Under the pieces are notes generated by a model, which was not told the DNA's origin, searched no databases, and saw nothing but the letters and a program-made list of their open reading frames with translations. Of a DNA stretch of 64,000 nt, positions 5,742-33,069 are shown in pieces (position 1 is the stretch's first letter; the number at the start of each line of letters is the position of its first letter). The DNA comes from a virus, in IMG/VR virus record IMGVR_UViG_3300013426_000002, positions 32,001-96,000 of that record, one strand, 5' to 3'. A program made the translations under genes and the position numbers.

Positions 5742-5760
5742 TTATTAACAAAAACTTTTC

Positions 5761-6577: not shown

Positions 6578-6600
6578 GTTAACCAAAAATTAAAAAAGAT

Positions 6601-7209: not shown

Positions 7210-7343
7210 AATATAATTCTATTTGCGCAATAGAACGAAGACTTCTCACGCTTAGCATATTGACAATTAAGTTAATGATAGCGTACCAGGAGAACCAGAT
7301 CGTATGCTGGCACTGACCACACAGGGGGTAATATAAAGGTGGA

Positions 7344-7438: not shown

Positions 7439-7458
7439 CTTATTTAAATTCGTATCAT

Positions 7459-12475: not shown

Positions 12476-12495
12476 TATAATACTAAAGGGGCTTT
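12462..12495. terminator. Bidirectional intrinsic terminator between convergent modules
   Basis: AAAGCCCC (12463-12470) pairs with GGGGCTTT (12487-12494). An inner TAGTA/TACTA helix lies within the loop. T-rich tracts follow the hairpin on both strands. It lies between the + strand gene ending at 12475 and the - strand gene ending at 12528. Confidence 0.75.
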
Positions 12496-12527
12496 ATTAT
12501 TGCCTTTAAAATTTTTAGGGCTATATA

Positions 12528-15500: not shown

Positions 15501-18362
15501 TTTATCCGCTAATTCTCTTTGAAATTTAAAAAGCTTTTGATAATGTTCACCGTAATTTAAATCTCTGGTCATAAATCCTGTTTTGTGACCATCTTTTGTT
15601 TTCTCATGGAAATAAGCCAGTTTAGATTTATCTACCTGATCTAACAATGATAATAACTCTTTACCTTTGATTCTTTCTTCATCTGCTACAGCATTCTTAA
15701 CAGCGATTATTTTGTTCATCATAATTCTAACTAATTCACTATTAGAATACTGTGTACTACCAACCCATTGATCCCACAAGTTAATATCTAAATCGCCTTC
15801 TTCCAGAATGTTTTTCAATTGATCTACAGTATATGAACCAGCTTTAGTAGCTTCTTTAATAAAGTTATCTTTAGCAATTATATCAACTACATTATTGAAA
15901 TTTCTAACAAGTTCTGCATAATTGCCCATGATTCTTTTTAATGCTACTTTTGTATCATTAATCAATTGTTCATTATTGAAATAATCAAAAGTAGTATCAT
16001 CATCTAGCATATTCTGCAAATTAGTAGCAATGTTGTTATAGAATCCAATATAACCTTTTTTAATCAGATCCAATTCAGCATTAGAGATTTCATGATCATT
16101 ACCGTATTTAGCAGCTTCTTTTACTTTGGATAATATTCTTAAAGTTTCATATAATGCAGAATTGATATCTTGATCCATGTAATCTATGAATTCTAAAGTA
16201 GCTTTATCATTTTCTAATTGATTTAATCTAAATTCTAAAGCTCTCAGTTCATCTAGTTTATTCGGATCTGTATATTTAGAATATTGGATGTCCTTCATTC
16301 TACGATGAATAGAAGACATTAATTTGTCATACGTATCATTCACAGCTTTTGGAGTTTCAACAACTTTTTGGTTGTGTATTTCTTTGCCAAAGAAATAAGA
16401 ATTATCCAACGTACGACCAGATAAAAATGCTTTTGTGATTTCGTTTAAAGTGTCTTGTTTTTCATTAAATAATCCTTTTATCCAATTAAAAAATCTATTA
16501 TACCATTTTAATGCTTTAACAGAATTCTCACCTATTGCTTGTACTAAAGCTTCTTCGCTACCAAATTGTTTTATACCTCTTTGTACAATAGGCGCATTTC
16601 TAAACCAAGCAATGTAATGATGAGCATATTCGTGAGGTAAGGTGTCTTGATTTTCTAATGCAGCATTTAATAATACTCTACCAGCCATATATCCTTCTAC
16701 TTGGGCTTGTCCCCTAAGATTAGGGTTTGTTAATGCATCTATTTCAATGTTTGGATATATCTCTCGCAGTAATAAAGCTAATTCTTTATTTCTACCAGTA
16801 GCGTTTTGAGTAGCAGCTTCTTGATTATAAATATTATTATCCTGAGTAGAGAATGTACCTCGATTATCTATTGATTTAACTTGGCTTGATCTTCTAACTA
16901 CTATTTCTCTAGCTTGTTCATTAGCTTCATAATTATGTTTTACTATAATACCATCTCTAAATACCCAATCATCGCGTCTGGTTTGTGGTATTGTATCTTC
17001 TTCTCTGAGGTTTAAGTATGTAGCATATAAAGAATTACCTTCAGAAGCATACCTTTGTGCTAATTCTTGATTAGGAGTAAAATAAAAGCCAAAATCAAAT
17101 TGCCCTCTTCTCTGATAGTTTTCATCAAAAGTGTCGAAAGTGGCAGAACTTCCATGATACACTACTAAAGGCTCTCCATTTTCATCTACTACTTTGGATA
17201 CACTAGTTTTAGCTTTATTTAAACTTTTCCAATTTTTAAAATCTTCAACATCTTGTTTTGTACCTAACAAATGAACATTTTCTTTCGGATTAAATACCAC
17301 AATAACATCTGATTCAAATTCATTATTTGCTTCATTAGATATAATTGCATCATTTTTATTTTGCTTGGCTTTAGTAAATAATCCTCGTTGTTCTTCATAA
17401 TAAGTATTCTGATTTTTCTCTACAATTGGATTTTGTACATTGAGGACTGCTGGATACATCCCTTTTTTTACTTGTCTAGATTTCCAAGCATTTTGAAATT
17501 CAGATTTCTTTCTATTTACCCAATCATTAAAGGTCTCTTTACCATATCTTATATCAAAGACTTCTTCAAAAAACTCTTTATCTGTTTTATCTTGATATCC
17601 GTATCTAGCTTTTCTTTCTGATAAATACTTTCCGTTAGAACCACCTTTGTCTCTATTAAATATACCTCTTTTATTTGGAGAATATTGCCTAATATTTGGA
17701 CCTATTATCTCATTTTTCCAGTCATTAGACTCCATTCTACCATTACCAAGAGCCTCTTTTAATTCCCACCAGAGTTTGACCCAGTTATTATACCCTTCAG
17801 TATCAGGAATGTTTCTGTTTACACCAGAAATATATTGCAATGATGCCCAAGGCTGTTTGTTAAAATACATTTCTGCACCAGTTTCTGGAGCGCCAGATCC
17901 TTTACCTTTTTTGGAATTAGCAACACCTTGAGATAGATCTGAATCTGTACCATGCCAATATATGGAGTCAATTAAAGAATTTGGATATATAGAATTTATA
18001 TATTGTGTATATTCTTCTTTACTACCTACTTTAGATAACTCTGGGTTTATATCATACAAATAATCAACTGCGTCTTTGCTATTAATATCTGTTGATGTGT
18101 TACCAACCCAATCTCCAAACCAATTTCTAAAGCTTTCAGAGTAAGTTCTAGCTTTAGCTTGAATAGCAGCTACTCTATTACCATTATAATGCTCTAAAAG
18201 GTCTGAAAATAGCTTAGATGGCTCCCCATTGGGAGCCTTATCTAAACCATAGCCATTGTTTTCTGAAAGAACATAATATGCAGCATTCTCACTACCTAAT
18301 ATTTCTGTATACTCTTTAAGTAAAGCTGCAACTTCTGGATTTTTAATATTTAAACACTGCAT
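12528..18362 (-). CDS. Giant (1944 aa) multidomain 'polyvalent' virion protein: two ART-like modules and a zincin HExxH domain
   Basis: One ART-like module is IYWHGTDSD...EMYFNKQ (about 17780-17970) and the other is VVYHGSSATFDTFDE...FGFYFTPNQ (about 16990-17170). Both fit the [YW]HG[ST]...[FY]F[TN] pattern of phage polyvalent-protein ADP-ribosyltransferase-like domains. The HExxH motif is LPHEYAHHY (16620-16634). A C-terminal hydrophobic segment reads FLFSTLGFWLISSIIRAMA. Confidence 0.6.
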   Translation of the reverse strand: MQCLNIKNPEVAALLKEYTEILGSENAAYYVLSENNGYGLDKAPNGEPSKLFSDLLEHYNGNRVAAIQAKARTYSESFRNWFGDWVGNTSTDINSKDAVDYLYDINPELSKVGSKEEYTQYINSIYPNSLIDSIYWHGTDSDLSQGVANSKKGKGSGAPETGAEMYFNKQPWASLQYISGVNRNIPDTEGYNNWVKLWWELKEALGNGRMESNDWKNEIIGPNIRQYSPNKRGIFNRDKGGSNGKYLSERKARYGYQDKTDKEFFEEVFDIRYGKETFNDWVNRKKSEFQNAWKSRQVKKGMYPAVLNVQNPIVEKNQNTYYEEQRGLFTKAKQNKNDAIISNEANNEFESDVIVVFNPKENVHLLGTKQDVEDFKNWKSLNKAKTSVSKVVDENGEPLVVYHGSSATFDTFDENYQRRGQFDFGFYFTPNQELAQRYASEGNSLYATYLNLREEDTIPQTRRDDWVFRDGIIVKHNYEANEQAREIVVRRSSQVKSIDNRGTFSTQDNNIYNQEAATQNATGRNKELALLLREIYPNIEIDALTNPNLRGQAQVEGYMAGRVLLNAALENQDTLPHEYAHHYIAWFRNAPIVQRGIKQFGSEEALVQAIGENSVKALKWYNRFFNWIKGLFNEKQDTLNEITKAFLSGRTLDNSYFFGKEIHNQKVVETPKAVNDTYDKLMSSIHRRMKDIQYSKYTDPNKLDELRALEFRLNQLENDKATLEFIDYMDQDINSALYETLRILSKVKEAAKYGNDHEISNAELDLIKKGYIGFYNNIATNLQNMLDDDTTFDYFNNEQLINDTKVALKRIMGNYAELVRNFNNVVDIIAKDNFIKEATKAGSYTVDQLKNILEEGDLDINLWDQWVGSTQYSNSELVRIMMNKIIAVKNAVADEERIKGKELLSLLDQVDKSKLAYFHEKTKDGHKTGFMTRDLNYGEHYQKLFKFQRELADKLGFGDKDLSEVPALLNKEQLKIWNTENNKWHSKYSIRRFVPEYYELTNSLSEEARTRRDTINMEINLLLNKTRDKDGNPHRELLSDEDYGKLQELENGRRNLANPFYADGTTKAGLDLEIAKEMQQYNKKLRAKLNYKPNMEKYNKAREAAKKNLSPELFEKWEQRNSVERIKEDFWEDVKMLSSNPIKSDNQVLYENARKNLLKLYAREDGTFNVDAMPENVKSMINTYDVMISDEAIANRDKQKKSRVMEIAKWNINPKFYEEYEHMEKQGEAAFNAWFSVNARYTSRGDIVPASFWRKLVPKDEFKSKYVERIPNKSWAEIDRESPFYDPRFTKYEDRGETIIPNIKYFDNTAAYNKIVSDPKLKALYDALTDVMDLSNSKIGFLRYANKYKLPQIEGGAWTQIRSKDNFLSGIAYAAHDLYTVKDDDDRYMLENAKRSDGSLVKLIPTRYIKMLDNPDAITNDIVGSIIHYYKMAVNYEKMSEVAPELELALDFVGRMDFKDRKGGRISGVESKTYDKMKDLMNRFVYGMEKDAKEVNIPLPKGKHARVSIDKLVSNLAAYTRIQGISQNLNVILTGLITNKIQNRLEAISGIYFGNEELAKATKTLLPAYADAIKNIGKANNKNKVLCYLEYLGVVRDNEQTFSKLNQSRLLRALNQHYWYFGHEIGDIITKGKLALSVAYFNKYDPETGKFLNKNQFLRRFKDKKKGKAAWNALNITFFDAFEVKNNQLVVKPEYANVVDENLSNRIKNTTKQIATRIDTQLSDLDKSKLHSNLIGQLLLIYRNFILVNLQTKFLTKRQFNYSTGLWNEAQIPAAYEYVKRHYFDKSKIDQLKELYKDHYDELDDYEKGCLKRVTYEFLFSTLGFWLISSIIRAMADDDRDNWWKQEAAYLTLRASLETRGNVLPIEVFNMLNSPTAAWSTLQYWGDLTTVALQDPFQEINRGPYRGLNRFQRSLIKSTPLRSIYEARDPRSKLEYYDNLISIF

Positions 18363-18364: not shown

Positions 18365-21300
18365 TTATTCACATTCTTTTTTACGTTGTTTACCCATTTT
18401 GTCTAATTCTTCAGTAGCAGAATCATTAGCTGCTTGTTTCAAATCAGCTTCCGTAGCTGATACAAATTCTTCATCTATATCATAGTTTTCCACTACTTGC
18501 TGCTTTGCTTTTTCTAGAGTTTGAACCATTACATAATTCTTTGCTCTAGATACTGCTACGTACTTCAATTCTTGTCTTACTTCTTGACCATTTTTATCAT
18601 TAAACCCAAAAGTATTTATACTACTGTCGTTAATTAAAACTTTACTATAAGTACCACCTTGAGATTTATGAATTGTGTGAGCATATCCGTAATCAAACGA
18701 TTTTCTAAGCTTTAATCTACCGTTAGCGTCTTTAACATCTCGCATAGTGTGAATCCTATTTTGTATATTATTGATTTTTTCAATAACAGCTTTAGCTGCA
18801 GTCGGATTTCCCTCAGCTAACAATTGCTTACGCATACTCCACAAGGTCTGTATATATTCTTGAACTTTTATGATATTTTCATCTGTTTCAAAATTAGATA
18901 CTACATCAATAGTAAACGAAGAAGCAGAAGTATCTATTGCGTCTTTGAGAGTAACTTTATATCCTTCCATACTTATACTTTCTTTTCTGTCAGGATATGT
19001 TAAATCAATTTGAATAGTAGTAGGTTTAACACTTTGCACTACGTAGTCTCCACTATTCATTAATTTATACTTCTTTCTTAGAGAATCGTATTCTCTATTA
19101 GAATAACCCATTACAAGTTCTCCTTCATACAGTTGCGCTGGTCTCCTACCATACAGGATTTGTCTTATCGCAGAGTTATAAGCTTCTACAGAAGAGTTTG
19201 TCGCAGCCAATACTCTAAAATATAGAGGGTCTTGTGAATCTTTCATTTCTTTTAATGAAGTTCTAACAAATTCTCTAATTCTATTTTTATCCGCTGTGTA
19301 TTCAACACCCTGTCCGTTAGAAGCAATATCAGTTTTATAACTAAAATCCTCACCGTTTCTCACTCTAGTAGATTCTTTCAATATAGGATTATCCCCAGTT
19401 CTTTCTACTTTGGTTAATTGTAATTGTGCACCATTGTTTCTAAATACCTTGGATATATTATTTGCTTTTACTGGTCTTAATTGACCTTTATCTCCCATAA
19501 ATATGATCTGAGCTCCTTTCGCTGCAATTTGCTCAAGTAAGAAATCATATAAACTGTCTTGAATCATTGAGACTTCGTCAACGATAACTATTGAATTAGA
19601 TTCTATTTTAACATCGCCAACCTGTTCAAATTTTAACTTGTGCAAATCAAACACATCTTCAGTAATGTTAAAATCCGGGCGCAATCCTAATAAACTTTGA
19701 AGCGTAACAACTTTTGCATTCGGTGTCTTTTGTCTAGTTACAGCATTTGCTCTATGGGTAGGAGCTGAGAAAATAATATCTGCATTTATTCTACGCTTCA
19801 AATATTCATTAAATATACCCATAATAGTAGTTTTACCTGTACCAGCATAACCAGATAAAGTAATAGATGTATCATCTCCATTAACAAATGCTTCTAACTC
19901 TTTCAAAGCAGATTTCTGTTGATCATTCAATTCAAAATCTAATTTAACTTCTAAACCATCATCAAAAGTATATACATATTTATCTTGTATTTGCTTAGTT
20001 TCTTCAACAGCTTGTTTTACTTCTTCTACTTTGGGTAAAGCCTCTGTTAAACCTACTTGATTAGCATATTGTTGAAGTTCAGTGAATTGAGTAGGAGTTT
20101 CTGAAGATTGTTCATCATGAGACCAAGTTTCGGCAAGATTGGTTTCTTTTGCTTCAGTCGGTACTTGCCTTTTTGAACTATATTCAAAATTATCAAGATA
20201 CTGCTGATATGCTTCTTGTGATGCAGCTTCACCGTTCTTTGACTGATAAGTTTTAGACCATTCTTTATAAGCTAAAGGTTCAGTATTCTGCAAATCAACA
20301 TTTTCAGTAGCTACAGTCTGTAAAGCATTTTCATTGAATTCTCCAGCTTGATTAAACATCTTAGTCTGTAAACTAGCTTTGACAGGAGTTAAATCTTGTA
20401 CATAAGTTATAGCTCTAGACGGGGTAAAATCTATACCAGTAGGTACTACATTGTTATAGCCTACAGAAGATTTCTTAAAACCAAACTCAACAAGTACATT
20501 ACCCTTATAACTTAAACCTTTCTTATTAATCAATTGATATACTGGTACTTTATTTTCATCTACACCAATATATTTATATAAGAAAGTAGTTCTAGGATCG
20601 TTGTTTTTGTCTAATTTAACTTTCTTATAAAGATAATGTATAGGATCACCTGCTTCATTATAACCTACAATACCTCTAAATTTACTAGATTCATCATAGA
20701 TTATAGAAGGTATTTCAACTTGTTCTCCTTTCTTATTAGTTACAAATAATCCACTACCATCATGAGCAACAGGTCTATATACTGCTCTACCTTCTTCTTC
20801 AATAGTTTCATAGCTAGAATCCAATTTATAGTATTCAATAGCAGGAACTACATGATCATTCCACCACAGATTTCTGATTACTTCTTGTAAATCTATCTGA
20901 GATATAACATTTTCTGGATGTTTTTCTAATTCTCTAATATAGTCAAAATATCCTATTTCTTCTCTTATAGAGTTAGGAACGTATCTAAATATATTATTCT
21001 TACCAAAAGCATCTCCAGACGTATAGAAAGAATATATTGCAAGATCTTTAGCAAATTCTCTTACTTCTTTATAATCACTTTCATAAAGTTCTTCCCAAGC
21101 ACGAATGATCTCATTTTCCAAATTATTATCACCACTTTTATTAGGTTTGTATGCAATGAAATCAGGTCCTTGTAATTCTGCAGCATCTTCTTTTGGTCTA
21201 CTAAAGATATTGTTAATCAACACATTCGAAAAACTACCATCACTCCCAAGTAATGAAGGATATTTGCCTTGTAATATATCAGATTTAAGTCTATCCAATC

Positions 21301-22786
21301 TTCTAGAAATACTGTTGTTACCAAATAGCATACCACGGAATCCCATTTGATTATCTTTAACATACTGATTAAAGAATTTAGTCTTGTAAGATACTTCCAT
21401 TGCTCTAGTGATGTTGTTAATATATGTATCATCACTTACAGCATAACCTTTGGTATAGTATTCAATTAATGATCGTAAGGTTTCAAATTCCGGAGTAAGT
21501 CTAATCATGACATTCTGGAATGCGTTTCTAGGAAATACTAAACCATCAATCATTTTCTTACCTAAGAACGTATTAGTAAACACTTTCAAAGGATTGTTAA
21601 AAACAGATTGTTCAGTCATATACTGTTTCCATTTATCCAAGAATGCGCTTTGTAAACCAAAGTTATTACCAAATCTTTTAGTATCAATCTGAGATAAGTT
21701 AGTTAATTCTGACAAACTCTTAGAAAATGGAGTTAATTCTTCATAAGCCTTAAGAATTAATAATTGATTATAATACCAATCAAATGTTTCGGTTTTCTGT
21801 AATTGTTTTCTAAGATGTGGTACAGTAAACATTTCTTTTCTTTGATTAGTACCTACACCTTTATCCTTAAGATAATTCAGAAGATTCTCTTTCTTACCAC
21901 CGGATAATTCTTTTGCTTTTTTATAATAATCATTCCAAACCTTGGTAAATGCTAATCTTTCAGGATTTTTACCAGCAGGTATTTCAACGCCATAAAAACC
22001 AGAATATTTATCATATTCAGTTGCATAGTCTTTCAATATCTGTTGAGGTAAGAAATAAAATGTACTTTCACCTTTACCACTTCTAATTAAGAAGTTAGTC
22101 ATGTTAAAAGTTAATTTACGTACATTCAAACGAATAATATACGGATCTTTAGCTACGTCTACGTGAGCATTAATCAAAGCTGATAACCAGTCTAATACAT
22201 TGATTTTATTAGCATCTTCACTCTGAATATGATGCAAATCACGTATACCGTAATCGTTCAATACTTTATTTGGTTTGAAATTCAACTTAACTAATTGAGT
22301 TAATACTTGATGAGCATTAGCTAATGCAAACGGACCAATACCAAACTTACCACCATTCAACTCAGCTTTAGTTCTACTCTGGAATGCCGGAGTAGAGAAA
22401 TACAATTGAGATTTACTAGTTCTCTTACCTTGACCCGTTAATTTATCAACATCCTTAAGAATTTTGTCTTTCAGATAATCTGTTACAGTATCAAGAGGCT
22501 GTCTAGCTTCTGCAAAGTTCATAGGATTGCTGATTACTGACAAATACATATCAAGAAGCATATTTTCGTTTGCTTCTCTACTATTTGCTTCAAAATCAGT
22601 TTTACCATTATATCTCTCATAAGCTTTTCTTACTACAGTTTCATCATCTAAACCAGTAGCTTTCAGTCTCCGAACATACTGATCTTTTGTTTCAAACTTG
22701 ATTCTATTACCATTATTATCGTAGTTATATCTTGCTATAAATAATTTATCAATCGCTACTACCTTATGATTTCCATAAGGGCTAGA
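18365..22786 (-). CDS. Virion RNA polymerase polyprotein, exon 2 (continuation of the catalytic DPBB strand plus a C-terminal SF1B RecD/Dda-like helicase)
   Basis: The reading frame of the 18365..22561 ORF is open for 75 more codons upstream with no start codon (SSPYGNHKVVAIDKLF...ANEN-MLLDMY). GNHKVVAI aligns with the GDQMAVHV segment that follows NADFD in bacterial beta-prime. The helicase motifs are LSGYAGTGKTT, IVIVDEVSMI, FMGDKGQLRPV, HTIHKSQGGTY and YVAVSRAK (about 18570-19900). Confidence 0.7.
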   Translation of the reverse strand, partial: SSPYGNHKVVAIDKLFIARYNYDNNGNRIKFETKDQYVRRLKATGLDDETVVRKAYERYNGKTDFEANSREANENMLLDMYLSVISNPMNFAEARQPLDTVTDYLKDKILKDVDKLTGQGKRTSKSQLYFSTPAFQSRTKAELNGGKFGIGPFALANAHQVLTQLVKLNFKPNKVLNDYGIRDLHHIQSEDANKINVLDWLSALINAHVDVAKDPYIIRLNVRKLTFNMTNFLIRSGKGESTFYFLPQQILKDYATEYDKYSGFYGVEIPAGKNPERLAFTKVWNDYYKKAKELSGGKKENLLNYLKDKGVGTNQRKEMFTVPHLRKQLQKTETFDWYYNQLLILKAYEELTPFSKSLSELTNLSQIDTKRFGNNFGLQSAFLDKWKQYMTEQSVFNNPLKVFTNTFLGKKMIDGLVFPRNAFQNVMIRLTPEFETLRSLIEYYTKGYAVSDDTYINNITRAMEVSYKTKFFNQYVKDNQMGFRGMLFGNNSISRRLDRLKSDILQGKYPSLLGSDGSFSNVLINNIFSRPKEDAAELQGPDFIAYKPNKSGDNNLENEIIRAWEELYESDYKEVREFAKDLAIYSFYTSGDAFGKNNIFRYVPNSIREEIGYFDYIRELEKHPENVISQIDLQEVIRNLWWNDHVVPAIEYYKLDSSYETIEEEGRAVYRPVAHDGSGLFVTNKKGEQVEIPSIIYDESSKFRGIVGYNEAGDPIHYLYKKVKLDKNNDPRTTFLYKYIGVDENKVPVYQLINKKGLSYKGNVLVEFGFKKSSVGYNNVVPTGIDFTPSRAITYVQDLTPVKASLQTKMFNQAGEFNENALQTVATENVDLQNTEPLAYKEWSKTYQSKNGEAASQEAYQQYLDNFEYSSKRQVPTEAKETNLAETWSHDEQSSETPTQFTELQQYANQVGLTEALPKVEEVKQAVEETKQIQDKYVYTFDDGLEVKLDFELNDQQKSALKELEAFVNGDDTSITLSGYAGTGKTTIMGIFNEYLKRRINADIIFSAPTHRANAVTRQKTPNAKVVTLQSLLGLRPDFNITEDVFDLHKLKFEQVGDVKIESNSIVIVDEVSMIQDSLYDFLLEQIAAKGAQIIFMGDKGQLRPVKANNISKVFRNNGAQLQLTKVERTGDNPILKESTRVRNGEDFSYKTDIASNGQGVEYTADKNRIREFVRTSLKEMKDSQDPLYFRVLAATNSSVEAYNSAIRQILYGRRPAQLYEGELVMGYSNREYDSLRKKYKLMNSGDYVVQSVKPTTIQIDLTYPDRKESISMEGYKVTLKDAIDTSASSFTIDVVSNFETDENIIKVQEYIQTLWSMRKQLLAEGNPTAAKAVIEKINNIQNRIHTMRDVKDANGRLKLRKSFDYGYAHTIHKSQGGTYSKVLINDSSINTFGFNDKNGQEVRQELKYVAVSRAKNYVMVQTLEKAKQQVVENYDIDEEFVSATEADLKQAANDSATEELDKMGKQRKKECE

Positions 22787-23658
22787 CTATATCTTCACTT
22801 TGATAGTGCTTCCCATTTCACCTTTCGGCTACACAGCGTGTGTGCGCTGACTCAAATCATATTGAATTTTATGAAGCATTGAAGGAATTTGTTCAACATA
22901 TGGTTTTACGATGTCTATAAACTTTATTCCTTCTTTTGTTCCACAGCATAAAGAATAACTGTTTTCTTTTTTACCTTCGTGAAACATGTAAAAATCAATA
23001 TTCCAAACTTCTTTAAAGTAATCTATTATTGTTTGTAATTCCTCTTTTGGCATACAGGTTGCAATTTTTATATAGAAACCGTGAACTTTACCATTTGTTT
23101 TTCTATAATTTATATGTCCATCATCCATATACCAGATTGCAATTCCTTTAGCATCTAGTCTGTTTAATAGTTTTCTATTTCCCAATTTTTTATTAGGTTT
23201 ATAAAAAACTCTTCGCAAGACTTTTATAAAAGGTATAATATTTAATTGAGTGTAATAAACTTTTTTACCTGTATTATAACCTTTAACACTGATGTATTCT
23301 TTTAAACCATTGTTTCGTAAACCAGCGTCTTTAAGTTGTTTTATTTTCCACTCAAGATAATCACGTTGTTCTTCACAATGACTTAATTTAAATACATTGT
23401 TATTGCTTATTGTTCCATCACCAAGTAAAAGAGCTATCAATAAATTTCTAGATTCTTTAGTTATTTTTGTTTTCATACTTGCTATCCATTTAGGAAGCTT
23501 CCATTGAGTATTAGTCGTTGAACCTTCCGATTAGTTATATAGATAACGATCGGCTTGGCTGCTGGTTGCCCAATCCCTTGGATTTTTACTACACTTAGTA
23601 CCTTAGGCTCTAAGGGGTTTCCAGCAATTAAAGAAGTTTTGTTTCGACTATTGTGTTA
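22787..23658 (-). mobile_element. Group-I-like intron (about 872-884 nt) with a LAGLIDADG ORF, inserted in the RNA polymerase metal-binding motif
   Basis: The 5' exon ends ..GAC UUC GAU (23659). UUCGAU can pair with intron GUCGAA (rc of 23643-23648), 10 nt downstream, giving a P1 helix with U.G at the splice site. The flanks 23477-23658 and 22787-22828 are non-coding and GC-richer. The 3' boundary is ambiguous: 22787 gives an intron ending in G, whereas 22775 gives the direct DFD|G join. Confidence 0.65.
22829..23476 (-). CDS. LAGLIDADG homing endonuclease, intron-encoded
   Basis: 215 aa with the motifs LLIALLLGDGTIS and IAIWYMDDGHINY. It lies between the two halves of the RNA polymerase reading frame. 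Confidence 0.85.
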   Translation of the reverse strand: MKTKITKESRNLLIALLLGDGTISNNNVFKLSHCEEQRDYLEWKIKQLKDAGLRNNGLKEYISVKGYNTGKKVYYTQLNIIPFIKVLRRVFYKPNKKLGNRKLLNRLDAKGIAIWYMDDGHINYRKTNGKVHGFYIKIATCMPKEELQTIIDYFKEVWNIDFYMFHEGKKENSYSLCCGTKEGIKFIDIVKPYVEQIPSMLHKIQYDLSQRTHAV

Positions 23659-26600
23659 ATCGAAGTCTGACCCAGTAAGGGCTGTAAATTCATCAGGAAG
23701 AGTAATAGTATCACCAATCTGTTCAGGATAAACGTCTACCACTTTTAAAGCTGCTGTAGAAGCCTGACCTTGCGCAGGGATACGATAACCCATTGCTATT
23801 GCCTTTGTATCTGGACCAATTATATCGTGGTTTATTAACCATTCTTTAGCTTGACTGAAAGTCATTTTATCATAACCAGGTATAATGTGCTTCAACAAGT
23901 TAATTGATATAACACAATCCATACTACCATCGTCATTGACAAAATTAAGCTTTCTTACATTGTTAACATCAGACGTTACAGCCAGTCTGTTATACAAGAT
24001 GGAAGACATCTGAATAAACATACCACCTGGTAAATTAGTATCTACTATGGCTTTGTTCAACATTGATATAAGACCGCTTTCAATCCAAGAGTTATCAGAC
24101 AAACCTGAAATAGGAGCATTAGTATTGCCATCTTCTACAGTAAGACCATTCAAAACATTATCATTCATGTTTGAATTTTCTGCTTTTCTCTTAAGAATAT
24201 TAGCAAATTTAACAATGCTGGCTTGTGGATTATTAGCATCAATACCAAAGTCTTTTTCTATACTCTTTCTACCAAATTCGGTAATGGCATTATGAGCTCC
24301 GTTGAAGTTGTCAATAACCTCTTGTCCAGAATAAGGTACTCCATCAGGAGTAGTATATGTCCAAGCTGTTCTAATGTTACCCATAGCTGCTTTCTGAGCC
24401 TGAGATACAAACATTTGTCTATCTGCATGGTGTGGATCAGTTACTAGCTGACGTCTAAAATTAACTAAAGACTGTTTGTGAGTAGGCATATTCATCAAAC
24501 CCTCGATATCTACCTTAGTATTTGATTTATCTGTGTATATCTTAGATTTAACTTCTTCAACTCTTTGGCCAACCTTAACTGCAGATTCAAATGCAAGCAT
24601 GTGAATGTTTCTAGCTTGCATTACTTTCAACACTTCTCCCATGTCCCCTGTAGAGAATATTCTATGAACCGGGAACATTGCCATCTTGTCGAATACAGGT
24701 ATATCTCTTTTTGCATTTATATCATAATGATCACCGAAGTACATTAATTTTAAAGGTTTTAATGTAACGGCTAGTGCTTCATTATAAGTATCTGCATCAG
24801 CTTCATAATCTGTTTCAGGGTTATTCAATATATCAAAAGCTTTAGCTACTTCAGGAGTCCAACCATCAATTCTTCTCACTAATTCTTTATAGAATTCAGG
24901 AGAAATAAGTACAGTAGCGTCCGTTTGGTTTACTTTGGTATAACCACCGAATTTACTATCAACTACAAGATTAGCAGCATCTTCAACATCTTGAGGTAAT
25001 GCTTCACCACTTTCATAAGCAGCAAGAGCTTCTTTTTGGGTCATGTTGTGCATTTCCTGCAATAATCTCACTGCCGCTGATTTCTTCGCAAATTCATTAA
25101 TTTTACTAAGCTGTCTACTAGGTATTACATTATCTGATAATGTACCCACATTAACTTCAGTCAAATTTGATAACTCATTACCTTCACCGTAGTCTATTCT
25201 AGGCGTAACACCGGTTGATAATACTTCACGAAGACGTTTGATTTTGTCTACAGGATCTTTATAATATGCAGGATCTTTGACAAATAATTTTTCAAATTCT
25301 ATTACTGAAGATACAGTATTAGCAAAATAATTTGCCATCAATTCTGTAGCAGCTAATTCCTTGCTGTATTTTGATACTTCTTGACGCTTCTTATAATGAT
25401 TTTCCGCATCATCTAATGCTTTTTGAGGAAGTGCTAAACTCTTTACACTAGCAAAATCTTTGCCATTCCAATCAATAATACCTATTTCCTTTGCATAATC
25501 TAATTCATCTTTAAAAGCATCTGTTAGATAGTTATTCATTAACAAAGCTTTATCAGAGTTACTCATCTTTGCCCAAGAAGCCTTTATTTGGTTTACTACG
25601 GATAATGCTAAATCACTACCACCAATGTCTTCAGCGAGTTTAAGAGCTTCATTGAAGTTAGAAAAGTCATCTACAAATTCAATGCCACCTAAGGTTGGTT
25701 GTTCTTTAAGCTTAAAGAATCCATTGAAATATCTAAATCTATAACCATTTCTATTGCCTGTATCGTAGTTCTTTACTTTTTGTGCTTTAGTTAGGTTGCC
25801 TTCATTCTTATAGTTGAATTCAATAGTATCTAATTCAGTTTCAAAGTAATTAATAAATCTAGTTAATACTTTGGCATTAAATTTAACTTGATTGTTAGTG
25901 GTATCTAAAGGCTGATTGAAATTGTTGATAGCTGTGCCATATAAAGTATTATATGTTTGAGAGTCACCCATAGTAGGTAAAATAATTCTACCTTTTTGAG
26001 TAAGTGTCATTTTAGCAATATAATCTTCTAATGGCGAGATTTCTGTGTATTTACGTCCTTTATCACCACTACCTTGTTCTTTAAAATAAACCAAAGTTTC
26101 AACACCTATTTTTCCAGATACTGTAGGATTATTATAAAGATTTGTAAGCAAATAAGAACCCTTAAAATAATTAGGGTTAGCATTATTACCGGTGTTATAT
26201 AACACCTTAGTAAAGGCTTCTACTGTTGCTGGGTCATTATCAAGATTCTGAACCATATCTGTTAAATAATTATGATCAGATATGGGATATAACAGTTTAC
26301 CGTCCGTAGATAATACTGATAATTCATCAGAATTGGGGTGTGTCATACCATAAGTTTCGGACAATCTACCTAAGAATTTAGAATCATCGTAATATCGACT
26401 AATGTGTTTGTTATACGTGCCTGGTACATTACCGGATGGTTCAATTTTTAATACATCCTTTAATTTATTACCAAATAAAAACGATAAACCAGCATTACTA
26501 CCGTCATTAAACAAATTTGTTAACTGTTCTGCAGGATTTGGATCATAATATTCTTTAATTAAAAATGAATTTAATGTATCCATATCTATAGATACTCCCG

Positions 26601-29600
26601 CTCTATTTAAGAGTGATAATATATTATCCTTTATTTTGATAACGTTAGCTTCTACATATTCTTTGTATGTTTGACCGTTCTTAAGTTTGGCGTTCGGTTT
26701 GTTTTTATAGCTTTTGAGTAAATTATTAATTTTGTGGTAATCATCCAGCAATAACTCTATATTAGTTTTATTATCGGTGGTTTTTAATGAATAACTATCA
26801 CCATCAAAGTTTATCAACTCAGTCATCCTAAGTAAACCATAATTCCACCCTTCTATAATGTTTTTGGAAATCTTATTTGCGTTCTCATCTTTTACATACA
26901 AATTAGTTTGGTCATTATCATTGTTTTCAATTTTTTCAGACAAGATACCAATAAGTTTGTGTTTGGCTTTTCTAAAAGTATTCCTGAATTGAGTTTGTAA
27001 ATTTTCTCTAGCTATTACTTGGGTTTCTGTTTCCCCAGGAACTGGTTTTGAAATCTTGTATAATTCTCTATATAAAGTATCAAAAAGAGGTAATGATTTT
27101 GCACATTTTGCACATTTATTCATCATACCTTCAAAGGTGTTCTCTGAGTGTAATTCGTTGATTATTGTATTCCATGAAGAATCGAAATCAACCATGAGCG
27201 GTAATCCGGTAACAGGGCTTAATACAGTTCTGGTTTTCTGTACCTTTACAATTGTGCCATCTTCTTTCTTAACTTCTGCCTCATAGAATTCTCTTTTAGG
27301 CATGGAAGCAATGAAGATTTTAATAGATGCCAAAGCATTATCTTTTACTGAGGTTTCTAATGATTCACGAATGTATGTAGCCATCTGATCGCCTACAGCA
27401 GAACCTTCGGCTTTTTCGTCTATTTCTTGGTCAATATTTTCCTGTTTGTCTACAGCTCTGATTTGATATTCATTTAGTTTCCTAATAATTGCTGGAAGAA
27501 ATACATTATCAAAAGTTTCATAGATTTCTTTTCTAGCTTCTCCTTGTTCTTTGGTAATCTTTCCATTCTCTACAAGCTTGTCTGTTAAAGAAGGTTCTAG
27601 AGCATTTTTTAACAAACTATAATTCAAGCCTGTTAAATCATCTCGCATCTTTACGTTATTCAAAGTAAATAAAGAAGCAACCAATGAATTAACACTTTCT
27701 TTGAATTGTGTATTTGTAATGTTTTTAAAATCGTGACCACCTAATTTAAATGGGGCTCCTGCACCTTTGTATTCATTTAAAAACTCCTGTACAGCTGCAG
27801 AATTTTGTTTAGATCTATTGTAGTATCCTGTATTAATTCTATCAAAAATATTATCAATAGTAGCGTCTGTTCTCCAAACCCATTTACTAATGAAGTTTTT
27901 AATTGCTTTCCAAGCTCTTTTTATGATATTTAAATCAGGTTCAACTTTGTTTAACATGTATTGTCTAAAATCTTCCGCAAGAGACTCTTCAACATCTTTA
28001 TCTGTACCAATTAAACCAGTTCTATTTCTATAAGCTTCATATATTTTATGACGTTCTTTAGGTGAAATAGTTAATAATGATATTCTATGATATGCTTCAT
28101 GATATAAAGTACCTGTTTCTGCACCTTTCCAGAGTAAAGTAGAATCTTGTTTAACAAGTCCCATTGCATACACATTGTTACCTAATGATATAGCATCGTC
28201 TACTATAGTGAGAGAATCACTTTGGAAACCCAATTTCTTTTTAAACCATTCTATTTCTTCATTAGAAACTTCTTTGGTTACTTTACCAGTAAGACGTCGC
28301 ATGGGAATATCAATGTCGTCATCCTCTATAGCAAATGGATCAATTGTCCCGTTTTTAGTGATTTCGTTGATTCTTTTTGCTTCTTCTGATAATTCTGTTG
28401 GTTCTACTGCAGCAACACTGGTAGGTACATTTGCTATATTTTCAACTTTGTTTTGAGTTTTTTCAACAGCTTTAGGACTCTCTACTTTTTTAGATATAGT
28501 TTGTATATCATCAGCATAAGCAAAAGAGTCTTTAAACAATTGATCTTGTAAGTCACTTTTGATTAAATTACTGTCAACAAACAAACCCATTGTATATAAT
28601 GGGTGATGTTCATTGTTACCTAAAAAATCATCTTTATAAAAGGTTACTCCTGGTATAATGTCTTCTTGCAAATACGAACTACTTTTTGCAAATGCTTCTT
28701 TTAAAGAGGGTAAAGCATTACCTACAGGACTAAAGAAATTTTCTCTATTGGCTCTCCAGTGAAATCCCATCAAATCGTTGACAAGGTCCACTTTATCTTG
28801 AGAAGACATATTCCCGATATGGTAAGATTTTTCTCCTACTACAAGATCCCCTTTATCATTTACATAAAGTTGCTTCTTTTTCATCCAATTAAAAGTAGGA
28901 ATATCAGACGTAACTTTAGTATTATCTCCAAAGCGAACCATGAAGTTTATTAATTCGCCAGCAACAATTTCTGTGTCTTTATAATAAGATTCAGGAGAGG
29001 CTCCGTAATTCAAAAGCAAATCTGCAAGAAACTCGGCTTGTTTTCTGTCAAATCTTTGTAAATTAACTTGTACTGGTATCTCTGAATTATTGAGTGTGCT
29101 AGATTTTGGAGGATAAATGAACAACTGACCACTACCCCCAGTACCATTTAATATTTCACCACCCGCACCAAGAATTAAGCTATCAGAAATAATACCATTA
29201 CTGATACCAAAGGTTACATTTTCTGGAGTAATATCATATTTATTACTAGGAAATTTGAATCCTTTTACTTCTTGCACAGGTCTAAATACCGCTCGCTGAC
29301 CATTTCTATTTATATTGTATTTACCACGAGTCCTACTGATTGTGCTCGGTACAATAACCTCATTGTTGGTCTTGTTTTCAATAGCAGTAATGATTGCATT
29401 TCTAAAAGATTTTAAATCATTTATAGAAACTTCATTAGCCTGTTCAATTGTATTTAATTCTTCTGCTGTAGCTCTATCACGAATACCTGCAATATCCGCA
29501 TCAAATTTAGTTCTAGCTCCTTTAGGGGTCTTAAGTGCTAAAGCGTACTTACCGGTAGGATGTTCTACACTCAATATAATAGAAGTATTATCATATGTAG

Positions 29601-32600
29601 TTTTATCACCCTTTTTATATGGTTTACTACCTTTTTCAGTGTAAGATTCATTAATAATGAACTCACAGAAACTATCTGCAAAGAACTTGGGATCTTTGAT
29701 TCTTTCTGCTAATTCTTTACCAGATTTATAACCAGGTAACATAGGAGTTGTGGAATCTGGTGAAAAGAACAATGTGTGTGATACTGTATCTTTAGCCAAT
29801 TCTTCTATTTCTAAAGAATCTTCATATTCTCTAGACTCAGAATCCATATCTGTTTTGCTATCATGTTTCTGTTCGGTAGCTAATTTCTTTTTAGCTTGTT
29901 CAACTTTTTGCTCTACTGTAATATCTGGAGTAATAGTATCTGCTGTTTGTGAAACTTTTTTGTCTTCATCTGTTGCAGCAGCTAAAGGATCTGCATCTTC
30001 ATTAGCAACCTTTTTTAAATCTTGAGGTGTAGCAAAAGCAAATTCTTCATCCTCTTCTTCCACATCTTCTACTACAGGTTCTTTCTGTTTGCTCTCTTCT
30101 GCAATTTTGTTACGTTCTGCTTCAAATTCTGCAGCTAGGTCTTCTAAACTTTTTGTAGGGAATTCCTCATCACGTTTAGTAGCTGGTTCTGTTTTTTCTT
30201 CAGGTGTTGTTTCAGGAGCAGGAAGCGGTGATGGTGCAGGTATTTCTGTGTTTACTTTGGATTTTGCTCTAGAATCCATTATAGGAGATTGCGGTTTTTC
30301 AGCTTCTTTTTCCTGTACTTCTGGAGCAATTTTGCTTGTGGCTACAGTTTCATTATTATCTGTGCCATTATTAGCTACTTCTTTTTCTGTAGAAGCAATA
30401 TCCTGTTCAACAATCTGCCTAGCGTTATCTTCCGCAATTCTACTAGACTCGTCTGAATTATTTAGATAATTTTCAATTCTCTTTTTGATATTGTTTAGTA
30501 CCTTTTTCTTTGATTTATCTGTAGCCTTGTCAAAACTAGTAAGTTTACCGTTTTCCAAAACATTACCGAAAATCTCATTCATTTTGTGTTCTGATACTAA
30601 AGCATCATGTTGAGCTAACATCAAATTTGCATAGCTATCCACACCAGTTTGCATGATGTGAGGAGCAGCTACAAAATCTGTACTGAACTTTGTATTAGCA
30701 GCTACTTGAGCCAACTGGCTATCAATGTTTTTAATGGCATTTGGTATAGTCTTTAAAATAGATTTGGCTACAGAATTATCACTATCAGTAATACCAAATT
30801 TAGTTTTGCCAGCTTCTACTGGAGCTTCAATTGCATTCTTCAACTCCTGTAAAGCTTCTTTCTGTACATTTAACTTAGTTAAAGTAATGGCTGCCAATTT
30901 TTCTTCAGGAGTGTAATTACTTAATAAAGCATCTTCAGAAAGATCTGCATACAATTTATTGTCAGCATCTTGAGCTGTTTTTGCATTATTAACAGCTTCT
31001 TGTAAATCTAATTGTGCTACATGTTGCAAACCAATTAAGGTGTTATATTCCGTAGTTCCCGCAGAATAACCTAATTGCTTACCAATATTCTTTGTAGTTT
31101 TTGATTTAGCTAAATTAAATACATTGTTTGCCGTTTGAATTTCAGCATTTATGTCATCCTCAGTAATACCGTCAGGCATGTGATATTTAAAGTTTTCTAA
31201 TACTTCAATCACACTGTCTTTATAATTGAGCATAGAGTTTGATGCTTTGTCCGCATATGTGACAGCTTTGTTCATAGCGTCTTTTTTAGCTATGTTGTCT
31301 GCAACCATATCCCTAACAAACGTATTGGCAATAAAATCTTTACGCATGTCAATACCTGCGTGATACGCTGTGGTAGGACCACCCATATACATACCCAATG
31401 CAAATCCACCTTTCACGTCATTCCAGAATTGAGGATCATTTGCCAATTCTGATTCAGTGTCTATTCCTGATAGAATTTTTGCGGTACGATAATTAGCATC
31501 AGCTAACCCAAGTAACGATGAAAAAATGCCAGAAGAATCTTTATCATACTGATTGTGAATGTAATCATAATCAAATATGTCCTGATTACCTTCTTCAAAA
31601 GCTTCCCCAGTAGCAGCAAAACCCATACGAGCAAGAGCTTTAGCCCCTTTACTTAACATATTCATTTTGGGACTATTGTAAGCCAATCTGGCATTAAATC
31701 CTGTGTATGCGTCAACTAGTTTATTATATTTCTTAGTAGCGGTATCCGACAATTTGGCTAATGGTTTTAATGCTTTACTTATGGGTTTGGTTATAATCTT
31801 ACCCATAGCTTTACCCAATGGAGCAAACATCAAAGCAGATTGTGCAACATCCATTGCGGACAAAGCCATGTTATTATTATAAACATTTTCTAGACCATTA
31901 TTTGCTGAAGCTTTTAAAGAATTCAAAACTTCATCGGATATTTTGATTTCACCAGATAAAGTTCTGTCTATAATTTCATCGTCTGAAATTTTTGTAACAT
32001 CTATATTAGGATTCTGTTGTTTTAATTGATCCCTCCCCATTTGAACATAATCTTGAATAGATACACCTTTATCTTCAAGATCTTTTTCAATTTTAGAACG
32101 GTATGCTCCGTACACTTGGGCTAATGATTCTCTGTGTCTACTATAAATATTTCCTGCTAAACTTATTGCTGTAGCTGCAATTGCTGTACCCCAACCAACA
32201 AGATTAGCTGCTGCTCCAACACCAGGAATTGCATTTAAAAGTCCAGTAGTTGCATAATGTCTGCCTAACCACAATGCACCTGTAGCTAAAGCATCAGCTA
32301 CATAAGATTCAATGGTTGACATAGAAGAACCTGTTAATCCAGGACCTGCATACAATAAATAATCAGAATCGTAAAAAGGTTTATCCTGAGCCTTTTGTTC
32401 TTTTATTTGAAACCTGGCAGAAGGTTTATATTTTTCAGATCTAGAAGTAATAGAATCATAATAATCTTTAATATTATCATTTACTTCGGATTGTTCGTTT
32501 ACCCACCAATCTCTTACACCATTCAAGTATTCAATTCTTTTATCTACATCATTACCTTCTGAATCATTGTATTTTTCTAATATGGCATTATATTTTTCAG

Positions 32601-33069
32601 AATTGGTTCTTAAATTGTTTTTAAGAATTTCATACTGCTGTAAAGTGTTTTGATATTCTTGGGAACTTTTATCCATAGTAGGTAAAACATTCTCAAGATT
32701 TAAGAGCATTTTCTTATCATTCAAATATTGTAATTCATAATCAATATCTTCAATGACAGGATTAATATCTTTTACTAATTTTGCTCTTTCAGACATCAAA
32801 TTAATTTGATCTCTATTGTTAGCAAAAGTAGTCCATGCGTCTTGCAAATAGCTTTTATCTTTTAGTGTTTCTTCTGGATTGTCTTTATTCAGCAAATACG
32901 CATATTCATAATCGTCTAATGGAGTTGTTTCTAAATTCCTATCATAACCTGTTTTAATGTTGGTAATAGGAGAATACTGAGAATTAACCATGTTTACAGC
33001 ATTACTTAATAATGCTGCTTTACTTGGTGTATTTTCAGTAGAATATTGACCTAATATAGATTTTTCCAT
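23659..33069 (-). CDS. Virion RNA polymerase polyprotein, exon 1 (3137 aa; N-terminal extension, zincin HExxH, beta-prime-like DPBB ending in DFD)
   Basis: The C-terminus GYRIPAQGQASTAALKVVDVYPEQIGDTITLPDEFTALTGSDFD parallels beta-prime NRAPTLHRLGIQAFEP..(G)KAI.LHPLVC.A(Y)NADFD. The stop codon directly follows DFD. The HExxH motif is GTLYHEAYHRISL (28087-28101). A Gly/Ala-rich hydrophobic segment lies near aa 235-310, and an acidic/Pro-rich low-complexity linker lies at about 29790-30470. Confidence 0.7.

What the first reader, a model, noticed from the sequence alone, without database searches (positions are those of the whole stretch)
18365..33069. Virion RNA polymerase gene interrupted exactly within its catalytic metal-binding motif by an endonuclease-bearing intron; the spliced ORF is about 4600 codons
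The 3137-aa ORF stops immediately after ..FTALTGSDFD. Its last 45 aa align with the beta-prime double-psi beta-barrel strand leading to NADFDGD. About 870 nt downstream the same strand reopens without a start codon as (SSPY)GNHKVVAIDKL.., which matches GDQMAVHV. Between the two lie a LAGLIDADG ORF and structured flanks. A P1 helix can form (UUCGAU / GUCGAA) with the U.G pair at the DFD codon. The join gives one product of 4606-4610 aa that combines an N-terminal extension, a zincin, the RNA polymerase and an SF1B helicase. Without splicing no active polymerase can be made.
Basis: partly seen in the sequence, partly recalled or inferred. Interest (0 to 1): 0.75.

Follow-up and report, generated by a model that had tools for sequence, protein, structure and literature searches.

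The report
Self-splicing intron splitting phage RNA polymerase

Summary
A 3137-codon minus-strand ORF stops right after ..GSDFD. A 215-aa LAGLIDADG gene follows, and the frame then reopens.

The insert is a 905-nt group I intron, window 23658-22754 on the minus strand. Its anatomy is canonical:
- P1 is UUCGAU/GUCGAA, with U.G at the 5' splice site.
- P10 is AUUG/CAAU.
- The terminal G is at 22754.
- The P3-P9 core covaries across 27 relatives: 98% of cells paired, 14 compensatory pairs.

The nearest phage, cr50_1, has one uninterrupted 4774-aa gene reading GSDFDIDKLF. This fixes the join at 23659|22753, giving DFD|IDKL and a 4599-aa product. The restored motif is DFDID, the catalytic triad of phi14:2 gp66.

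The zincin domain is unsupported.

Close relatives show every stage of a homing cycle: no intron, a 276-nt ORF-less intron (RF00028, 78.6 bits), and endonuclease-bearing introns.

Introns in crAss-like phages are already published, so this is a new member of a known kind. One extra point: related introns sit at four adjacent codon boundaries of DFDID, each with a matching guide sequence. There is no RNA evidence here.

The parts
23659..33069 (-). Exon 1 of the giant virion RNA polymerase polyprotein gene. It has 3137 codons and ends GAC TTC GAT (D F D).
   Evidence: colinear with cr50_1 CDS KNV26_gp059
22754..23658 (-). Group I intron, 905 nt. It starts with UAA, which is the apparent stop codon of the 3137-aa ORF, and ends with the terminal G at 22754.
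   Evidence: RF00028 half-matches; junction from the cr50_1 alignment; core covariation; coordinates
23659..23664 (-). P1, exon strand UUCGAU. The last U (23659) forms the U.G wobble that marks the 5' splice site.
23643..23653 (-). Internal guide sequence CAAU-A-GUCGAA. GUCGAA (23648-23643) pairs with exon 1 to form P1. CAAU (23653-23650) pairs with the first four bases of exon 2 to form P10.
   Evidence: In relatives the guide changes together with the exon bases, for example exon 2 GUUG with CAAC and AUAGAU with AUCUAU.
23512..23636 (-). 5' half of the ribozyme core: P3 5' strand CUUCUU (23636-23631); P4 UGCUGG/CCAGCA; P5 with extension; P6 CCGAU/AUCGG; P7 5' strand GACUA (23516-23512).
22829..23476 (-). 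Intron-encoded double-motif LAGLIDADG homing endonuclease gene, 215 aa, with motifs LLIALLLGDGTI and GIAIWYMDDGHI. It lies between P7 (5' strand) and P3 (3' strand), where subgroup IA introns carry P7.1/P7.2.
   Evidence: Pfam PF03161, 79 bits; PHROG 11023; closest solved structure I-SceI, E 1e-3, with the second motif aligned
22754..22829 (-). 3' half of the core: P7.2 hairpin GCCGAAAGGU (22829-22820); P3 3' strand GGGAAG (22814-22809); P8 hairpin CACU-AUCAA-AGUG (22808-22796); J8/7 AAGAUA (22795-22790); P7 3' strand UAGUC (22789-22785); P9 CCCUUAUG-GAAA-UCAUAAGG (22781-22762); tail UAGUAGCG ending in the terminal G (22754).
18365..22753 (-). Exon 2: 1462 codons plus the stop, beginning ATT GAT AAA (I D K). 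There is no start codon at the junction; the first in-frame ATG is 64 codons downstream, at 22561.
22001..27366 (-). Region homologous to the phi14:2 gp66 RNA polymerase (spliced residues 1902-3388). It spans the intron. The DFDID motif is residues 3135-3139 of the spliced protein.
   Evidence: phmmer against gp66; PDB 6VR4, E 4.6e-27, with GSDFDIDK aligned across the junction
18422..20152 (-). C-terminal SF1B (Dda/PIF1/RecD-like) helicase module in exon 2.
   Evidence: Pfam AAA_30, AAA_19, PIF1, UvrD_C_2; PHROG 325 Dda-like helicase, 7.9e-84

Best explanation
Window 23658-22754 (minus strand) is a mobile group I intron of subgroup-IA-like architecture. It has no P2, and it carries a peripheral insert between P7 and P3' that holds a LAGLIDADG homing endonuclease gene. 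It sits in the gene for the giant virion RNA polymerase polyprotein of a crAss-like phage (Suoliviridae, near Cohcovirus cr50_1).

It is inserted in phase 0 after the second Asp codon of the catalytic DFDID motif.

How it most likely works (inferred from the anatomy, not shown at RNA level):
- In the late transcript the guide sequence CAAUAGUCGAA aligns the exon-1 end (UUCGAU) and the exon-2 start (AUUG).
- An external guanosine attacks after U23659.
- The freed exon 1 attacks after the terminal G at 22754.
- The exons join as ..GAC UUC GAU|AUU GAU AAA.., giving a single 4599-aa protein with an intact DFDID Mg-binding triad.

The endonuclease, translated from its own ATG, is inferred to cut intron-less alleles at the DFDID-coding sequence during co-infection. 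Repair then copies the intron in (homing).

Shown here: the anatomy, the exact colinearity with an uninterrupted homologue, structure covariation, presence/absence polymorphism, and intron-versus-host discordance.

Inferred: actual splicing, endonuclease activity, and its target.
For: 1. RF00028 matches both intron halves (45.8 and 35.9 bits; E 3.9e-10 and 3.7e-7) on the gene strand.

2. An ORF-less 276-nt sibling intron sits at the same site in phages whose junction peptide is 99% identical. It scores 78.6 bits against a gathering score of 50. An intron-less relative gives no hit.

3. cr50_1 has one uninterrupted 4774-aa CDS reading GSDFDIDKLF. The DNA alignment gives a unique join at 23659|22753.

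4. The canonical marks are present: U.G at the 5' splice site, a terminal G, and a 4-bp P10.

5. Structure covariation was counted across 27 distinct introns:
- The 30 core pairs (P3-P8) are 98.3% paired, against 29-45% when the partners are slid.
- 14 pairs show compensatory changes, in 144 cells.
- The covariation score is 0.48, against 0.17 for shuffles (0 of 500 reach it).
- P3 has 14 different complementary strand pairs.
- The guide sequence changes together with exon bases.

6. The spliced ORF has a single stop, at its end. PDB 6VR4 (gp66) aligns GSDFDIDK across the junction. Each Asp of gp66 1361-DFDID-1365 is essential, and position 4 is always I or V in crAss-like phages.

7. There are signatures of homing:
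- Relatives with 91-95% nt identity in the flanking exons are intron-less (8 contigs), carry the ORF-less intron (4), or carry one of two different endonuclease-bearing introns.
- L004 has a 94%-identical intron in an RNA polymerase that is only 35% identical at protein level.

8. The endonuclease ORF is intact, with both LAGLIDADG motifs and both catalytic Asp residues.
Against: - There is no RNA-level evidence: no junction reads and no in vitro splicing.
- In the window itself, neither Rfam half-match reaches the gathering score, and the default whole-window scan found no intron. The 648-nt ORF splits the model.
- Thermodynamic folding of an ORF-deleted construct is only modestly better than shuffles (z = -2.5).
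- Endonuclease activity and target are untested. The nearest solved relative, I-SceI, is distant (E 1e-3).
- The subgroup assignment (IA-like) rests on helix topology only.
Confidence: 0.9

Rival explanations
1. The polymerase is naturally split. A free-standing homing endonuclease gene has landed between two independently translated polypeptides, one ending in DFD and one starting downstream, and these reassemble without RNA splicing.
For: RefSeq annotates the equivalent locus of cr131_1 as three separate 'hypothetical protein' CDSs. Transcription-block proteins are fused or split differently among crAss-like phages. Free-standing endonucleases that split phage genes are known (my own knowledge).
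Against: - The flanks of the endonuclease gene are a covarying group I ribozyme.
- Exon 2 has no start codon until 64 codons past the junction.
- The split would separate the three Asp residues of one metal site, each of which is essential in gp66.
- The insert boundaries are exactly colinear with an uninterrupted homologue, with a -1 U and a terminal G.
- The guide sequence tracks exon changes.
Confidence: 0.03
2. The element is a decayed, non-splicing intron, so this genome copy encodes a dead polymerase (a defective phage or an assembly of a non-viable variant).
For: The window's own Rfam scores are below the gathering score. The homing cycle predicts degeneration, and ORF-less derivatives do exist.
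Against: - Every tested core pair in the window copy is a standard pair, and P1, P10 and the terminal G are intact.
- The endonuclease ORF and both long exons (3137 and 1462 codons) are uninterrupted.
- A 97-100% identical intron occurs on an independent, near-complete 100-kb contig, L003.
Confidence: 0.05
3. The insert is an intein or another protein-level element, or an assembly chimera.
For: Inteins with LAGLIDADG domains occur in crAss-like phage genes such as TerL.
Against: - A TAA follows the DFD codons directly.
- The endonuclease ORF starts 182 nt later, in another frame, with its own ATG, and no Hint domain was found.
- The same architecture occurs on more than 40 independent IMG/VR contigs.
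Confidence: 0.01

Closest known systems
Group I introns with endonuclease genes in Delta (Suoliviridae) and Zeta crAss-like phages (Yutin et al. 2021, PMC7886860)
   Same: Same phage order and family. Group I introns were recognised through their endonuclease domains in core genes. The paper's Fig. 3 legend lists 'LAGLIDADG ... intron-encoded endonuclease maturase' within the transcription gene block.
   Different: [quoted passage not shown] It gives no splice sites, ribozyme structure or insertion position. For Zeta phages it calls the disruptions inside DxDxD possible 'unknown expression mechanisms'. Here the exact junction, the helices and the allelic series are worked out.
Phage T4 td / nrdB / sunY introns and other phage subgroup-IA introns (my own knowledge; reviews PMC3984707 and PMC3943268 were listed but not read)
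   Same: Self-splicing group I introns in highly conserved, functionally critical codons of essential phage genes. They are optional among close relatives and carry a homing endonuclease ORF looped out of a peripheral element.
   Different: The T4 introns carry GIY-YIG or HNH enzymes, with the ORF in P6a or P9.1. This intron carries a double-motif LAGLIDADG enzyme in the P7-P3' insert and has no P2.
I-SceI (PDB 1R7M and others), the monomeric LAGLIDADG endonuclease of the yeast mitochondrial LSU rRNA group I intron
   Same: It is the closest solved structure by sequence. Both are about 215-235 aa with two LAGLIDADG motifs, and the second motif (..W[YF]MDDG..) aligns.
   Different: The match is only E about 1e-3 over the C-terminal half. 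The host, target and intron are different.
Cellulophaga phage phi14:2 gp66 virion RNA polymerase (PDB 6VR4)
   Same: The host gene is its homologue (E 4.6e-27). The spliced motif GSDFDIDK is identical to gp66 1359-1366.
   Different: gp66 is an uninterrupted 2180-aa protein. Here the module is embedded in a 4599-aa fusion with a long N-terminal part and a C-terminal SF1B helicase, and it is interrupted by the intron.

Membership tests
Group I intron (Rfam RF00028) | Score at or above the family's gathering score (50 bits) | tested here: inconclusive
   In the window, the two half-matches score 45.8 and 35.9 bits because the 648-nt ORF splits the model. An ORF-less sibling at the same site in a close relative (L112; junction peptide 99% identical) scores 78.6 bits, E 4e-19.
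Group I intron (Rfam RF00028) | P1 formed by the 5' exon end and an internal guide sequence, with a U.G wobble at the splice site | tested here: met
   UUCGAU/GUCGAA with U23659.G23648. The -1 base is U in all 41 typed relatives.
Group I intron (Rfam RF00028) | Terminal G at the 3' end, and P10 with the 3' exon | tested here: met
   G22754 precedes the homology-defined exon 2. P10 is AUUG/CAAU and covaries in relatives: GUUG/CAAC, AUAGAU/AUCUAU, GUAGA/UCUAU.
Group I intron (Rfam RF00028) | Conserved catalytic core P3-P4-P5-P6-P7-P8 with the P3/P7 pseudoknot, supported by covariation | tested here: met
   30 pairs are 98.3% paired (slid controls 29-45%), with 14 compensatory pairs. P7 GACUA/UAGUC and J8/7 AAGAUA are invariant. 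The alignment was anchored on conserved motifs, so it leans somewhat towards the structure.
Group I intron (Rfam RF00028) | Guanosine-dependent self-splicing of the transcript | not testable with these tools
   This needs in vitro transcription and splicing, or RNA-seq. No spliced-junction sequence with the window's haplotype was found in the JGI metagenome or IMG/VR contigs.
LAGLIDADG homing endonuclease | LAGLIDADG fold and motifs with catalytic acidic residues | tested here: met
   PF03161 at 79 bits (cut-off 25). There are two motifs..LLLGDG.. and ..WYMDDG.., and the second aligns to I-SceI ..WFMDDG...
LAGLIDADG homing endonuclease | Site-specific cleavage of the intron-less allele, driving homing | not testable with these tools
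   The evidence is indirect only: intron-less, ORF-less and ORF-bearing alleles occur among close relatives, and a 94%-identical intron occurs in a 35%-identical host gene.
crAss-like virion RNA polymerase (gp66 family) | Sequence homology to gp66, including the DPBB carrying DFD[IV]D | tested here: met
   PDB 6VR4 at E 4.6e-27. gp66 residues 223-1665 align to spliced residues 1902-3388. DFDID is restored only by the 23659|22753 join.
crAss-like virion RNA polymerase (gp66 family) | Packaged in the virion and transcribing early genes | not testable with these tools
   This is known for phi14:2 gp66 and is inferred by homology here.
Intein | In-frame insertion with Hint splicing domains | tested here: not met
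   TAA follows the DFD codons directly. The endonuclease ORF is in another frame with its own ATG, and there is no Hint domain.

The most novel reading that the evidence does not exclude
The nine bases encoding (D)FDI(D) of the crAss-like polymerase active site are a multi-site intron hot spot. One lineage of ribozyme core plus LAGLIDADG gene occupies four adjacent phase-0 positions in different phages: D|FDID, DF|DID, DFD|ID (this window) and DFDI|D. Each has a guide sequence (P1 and P10) rewritten to fit its own site.

Endonuclease relatedness cuts across insertion site. For example, the window's intron core is 96% identical to a D|FDID intron.

This would mean either that the endonuclease-plus-core cassette is repeatedly exchanged between introns parked at neighbouring sites, or that introns shift site by whole codons. 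It may also explain the unexplained DxDxD disruptions reported in Zeta crAss-like phages.
Probability: 0.5. Interest if true: 0.6.

Novelty: new member of a known kind. Interest (0 to 1): 0.4.

Why it matters
Annotation. Public records call this locus three unrelated hypothetical proteins; RefSeq does so for cr131_1, and gene callers would do the same here. Recognising the intron restores a single polymerase gene and gives the correct protein for structural and proteomic work on crAss-like virions.

Biology. It shows a selfish element parked in the most constrained codons of an enzyme the phage must package to start infection. The phage therefore depends on ribozyme activity in its late transcripts.

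Experimental value. The allelic series (no intron, ORF-less intron, two endonuclease-bearing introns) and the four neighbouring insertion sites offer a natural system. It could be used to study homing, guide-sequence retargeting and endonuclease exchange in abundant, mostly uncultured gut phages.

Tried and rejected
- The default Rfam scan of the whole window (gathering score) found only a tRNA. The intron appears only with E-value reporting.
- The Rfam alignment of the window places P3' and P8 inside or before the ORF. Covariation shows that the true P3' (GGGAAG) and P8 lie after the ORF. I rejected my earlier candidates for P8 (CUUCC/GGAAG and GAUAG/CUAUC).
- Rfam's apparent 3' end at 22762 would give an out-of-frame join that hits a stop (TAG) at once, so it was rejected.
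- The zincin claim found no support. Pfam on the whole ORF and on the HEAYH region, and PHROGs, gave nothing. phmmer with part of phi14:2 gp65 found no match in the window proteins tested.
- The exact spliced-junction sequence was not found in JGI metagenome contigs or IMG/VR. The exact 5' exon-intron junction of the window was also not found in IMG/VR.
- Megablast of the region against INPHARED hit only cr50_1, and only over exon 2. The protein search was what gave the answer.
- MFE folding of an ORF-deleted construct recovers P1, P6 and P9 but not the pseudoknotted core, with z = -2.5. It is not decisive.
- My contiguous-pairing script undercounts P1 in several D|FDID introns that have one internal mismatch. 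Those were read by eye.
- Literature searches found no paper that describes this insertion site.
Full report
**1. What is in the sequence**

On the minus strand a 3137-codon ORF (23656..33069) ends ..LPDEFTALTGSDFD-TAA. A 215-aa ORF follows (22829..23476). The original frame is open again from 22786 and runs to 18365.

- The small ORF is a LAGLIDADG_2 protein: 79 bits against a cut-off of 25, and PHROG 'homing endonuclease with LAGLIDADG motif'.
- It has two motifs (LLIALLLGDGTI, GIAIWYMDDGHI). Its nearest solved relative is the monomeric I-SceI.
- The downstream ORF carries an SF1B helicase: AAA_30, PIF1, UvrD_C_2 and Dda-like PHROG.

**2. The insert is a group I intron**

With Rfam's gathering scores nothing but a tRNA is reported. 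With E-value reporting, RF00028 matches both flanks of the endonuclease gene on the gene strand: 23668-23415 at 45.8 bits (E 3.9e-10) and 22961-22762 at 35.9 bits (E 3.7e-7). It is the only intron in the window. The scores stay under 50 bits because the 648-nt ORF splits the model.

An ORF-less 276-nt version of the intron sits at the same site in phages whose junction peptide is 99% identical (L112-L114, L116). It scores 78.6 bits (E 4e-19). An intron-less relative (L083) gives no hit.

**3. Exact boundaries**

A junction-spanning peptide finds a single continuous match in phage cr50_1 (Cohcovirus hiberniae, Suoliviridae). There the gene is one 4774-aa CDS reading GSDFDIDKLF.

The DNA alignment is unambiguous:
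- cr50_1 reads ..GAC TTC GAT ATT GAT AAG..
- Window exon 1 ends ..GAC TTC GAT (23659).
- Window exon 2 begins ATT GAT AAA (22753).
- The join cannot be slid by a base in either direction.

The intron is therefore 23658-22754, 905 nt. Its first three bases (UAA) are the apparent stop codon of the 3137-aa ORF.

The canonical marks are all there:
- The last exon base is a U paired to G in P1 (UUCGAU/GUCGAA).
- The last intron base is G (22754).
- CAAU, lying just 5' of the P1 strand of the guide, pairs with the first four exon-2 bases (AUUG) as P10.

The spliced ORF is 4599 codons with one stop, at the end.

Those residues are the 3' tail of the intron, which happens to be open in frame.

**4. 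The host gene and the motif**

PDB 6VR4 (phi14:2 gp66, the crAss-like virion RNA polymerase) matches at E 4.6e-27 and aligns GSDFDIDK across the junction. gp66 residues 223-1665 align to spliced residues 1902-3388.

The gp66 paper shows that:
- 1361-DFDID-1365 is the catalytic motif;
- each Asp is essential;
- position 4 is always I or V in crAss-like phages.

So the intron sits after the second Asp of the Mg-binding triad. An unspliced message cannot encode an active enzyme; this last step is inference from the gp66 mutagenesis.

I could not confirm a zincin domain. Pfam and PHROGs give nothing, and only a lone HEAYH occurs at residue 1657. In phi14:2 the zincin domain lies in gp65.

**5. Is the ribozyme under selection?**

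The endonuclease protein retrieves 79 loci from IMG/VR, mostly on contigs of about 100 kb. In 41 of them I could type the intron in the same polymerase motif. I joined the 5' and 3' core parts of 27 distinct introns and aligned them.

For 30 pairs of P3, P4, P5, P6, P7 and P8:

| Measure | Value |
|---|---|
| Cells that are standard pairs | 98.3% |
| Same, with partners slid 1-3 columns | 29-45% |
| Pairs with compensatory changes | 14 (144 cells) |
| Covariation score | 0.48 |
| Covariation score, shuffled | 0.17 (0 of 500 reach the observed value) |

- P3 alone has 14 different complementary strand pairs.
- P7 and J8/7 are invariant.
- The analysis also corrects the Rfam alignment of the window: P3' (GGGAAG, 22814-22809) and a short P8 hairpin lie after the ORF.
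- The endonuclease gene therefore sits between P7 and P3', where subgroup IA introns carry P7.1/P7.2. There is no P2.
- I call the architecture IA-like and go no further.

One caveat: the alignment is anchored on conserved motifs, so it leans somewhat towards the structure. The slid controls and the pair-type diversity still make chance implausible.

**6. Mobility**

Relatives whose flanking 1.5-kb exons are 91-95% identical to the window at nucleotide level occur in four states:

| State | Loci |
|---|---|
| No intron | 8 contigs; site GACTTTGAT\|ATTGAT |
| ORF-less 276-nt intron | 4 contigs |
| The window's intron (97-100% identical) | L003 |
| Different core, with an endonuclease gene 76% identical at nt level | L040 |

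Conversely, L004 carries an intron 94% identical to the window's in a polymerase only 35% identical at protein level. This is the pattern expected of a homing element that invades, loses its endonuclease and is lost. It is also evidence of transfer between divergent phages.

**7. How it most likely works**

The guide sequence CAAUAGUCGAA aligns both exons, and guanosine-initiated two-step transesterification joins 23659 to 22753. The endonuclease, with both catalytic Asp residues intact, cuts the intron-less DFDID-coding DNA during co-infection, and repair copies the intron.

The anatomy, colinearity, covariation and polymorphism are shown. Splicing, cleavage and target are inferred.

Rivals are unlikely, for the reasons given with each: a naturally split gene with a free-standing endonuclease, a dead intron, an intein, or a chimera.

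**8. Beyond the finding**

The related introns occupy four adjacent codon boundaries of the motif:

| Site | Count |
|---|---|
| D\|FDID | 18 loci, including RefSeq phage cr131_1 |
| DF\|DID | 6 loci |
| DFD\|ID | the window plus 16 loci |
| DFDI\|D | 1 locus |

- Every one has a -1 U and a terminal G, and splicing restores DFD[IV]D.
- P1 and P10 fit their own site, up to 12 and 9 bp in the D|FDID class.
- A rough endonuclease tree interleaves the site classes.
- The window's 5' core is 96% identical to that of a D|FDID intron, L005. There the differences are confined to the guide region and to P9 and the 3' tail.
- In relatives that appear to read TAG as Gln, the endonuclease ORFs are full length only with that recoding.

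**9. Comparison with the literature and verdict**

Yutin et al. 2021 reported:
- abundant group I introns and inteins in Delta (Suoliviridae) and Zeta crAss-like phages;
- a 'LAGLIDADG intron-encoded endonuclease maturase' drawn in the transcription block (Fig. 3 legend);
- disruptions within DxDxD in Zeta phages, described as possibly needing unknown mechanisms.

I found no paper giving this insertion site, its structure or the multi-site pattern. RefSeq annotates the cr131_1 locus as three hypothetical proteins.

The finding is thus a well-supported new member of a known kind, not a new mechanism. Interest is moderate (0.4). The hot-spot pattern is the part most worth following up.

Noticed in passing
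L005-L009, L018, L020, L024, L028-L031, L034, L035, L038, L041-L043 (D|FDID); L021, L032, L033, L036, L037, L039 (DF|DID); L045 (DFDI|D); around locus positions 2760-3760: Related group I introns with related LAGLIDADG genes sit at four adjacent codon boundaries of the DFDID motif in different crAss-like phages. Each has a guide sequence that matches its own site, and endonuclease relatedness cuts across the site classes.
   Followed up: partly
L083-L087, L107, L108, L119 (no intron); L112-L114, L116 positions 2382-2657 (276-nt ORF-less intron); L003 and L040 (two different endonuclease-bearing introns): Phages with 91-95% nt identity to the window in the flanking exons show all stages of a homing cycle at this one site.
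   Followed up: yes
window 23662-23660 (TTC), compared with L083, L087, L107 and L119 positions 2376-2378 (TTT): In this clade, intron-bearing alleles have Phe TTC in the DFD codons and the four intron-less alleles inspected have TTT. No intron-less TTC haplotype was found in IMG/VR or JGI contigs. This could be co-conversion, a P1 requirement, or a difference in endonuclease target or immunity.
   Followed up: partly
L017, L021, L022, L024, L029, L030, L032-L035: endonuclease ORFs starting at locus position 3001: These endonuclease ORFs contain in-frame TAG codons at positions that are Gln in the window's protein. They become full length (210-242 aa) only if TAG is read as Gln, so the intron gene follows the stop-codon recoding of its host phage.
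   Followed up: partly
L082 (NC_055902.1, cr131_1), locus 1-14492: The RefSeq record annotates exon 1, the endonuclease and exon 2 as three separate 'hypothetical protein' CDSs. The intron, of the D|FDID class, is not annotated.
   Followed up: yes
L049-L056 around position 3000 (contigs of 94-174 kb): A LAGLIDADG protein about 50% identical to the window's lies in what looks like another group I intron (..CCGCATCTAAGC..TTCATCGACTATCC..). It is not flanked by the polymerase exons, so the host gene is different and was not identified.
   Followed up: no
window 12528-18362 (-): The 1944-aa ORF directly downstream of the polymerase gene has a HEYAH motif at residue 577 and only a weak PHROG match of unknown function. 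It might be the gp65-like, zincin-bearing partner, but phmmer with phi14:2 gp65 found nothing.
   Followed up: partly
window 680-752 (+) and about 12475-12528: A tRNA-Val (CAC) gene lies at 680-752. Genes run on the plus strand up to 12475 and on the minus strand from 12528 onward. GC and AT skew flip sign at the same point, which is the divergent replication and structural/transcription blocks typical of crAss-like genomes.
   Followed up: no
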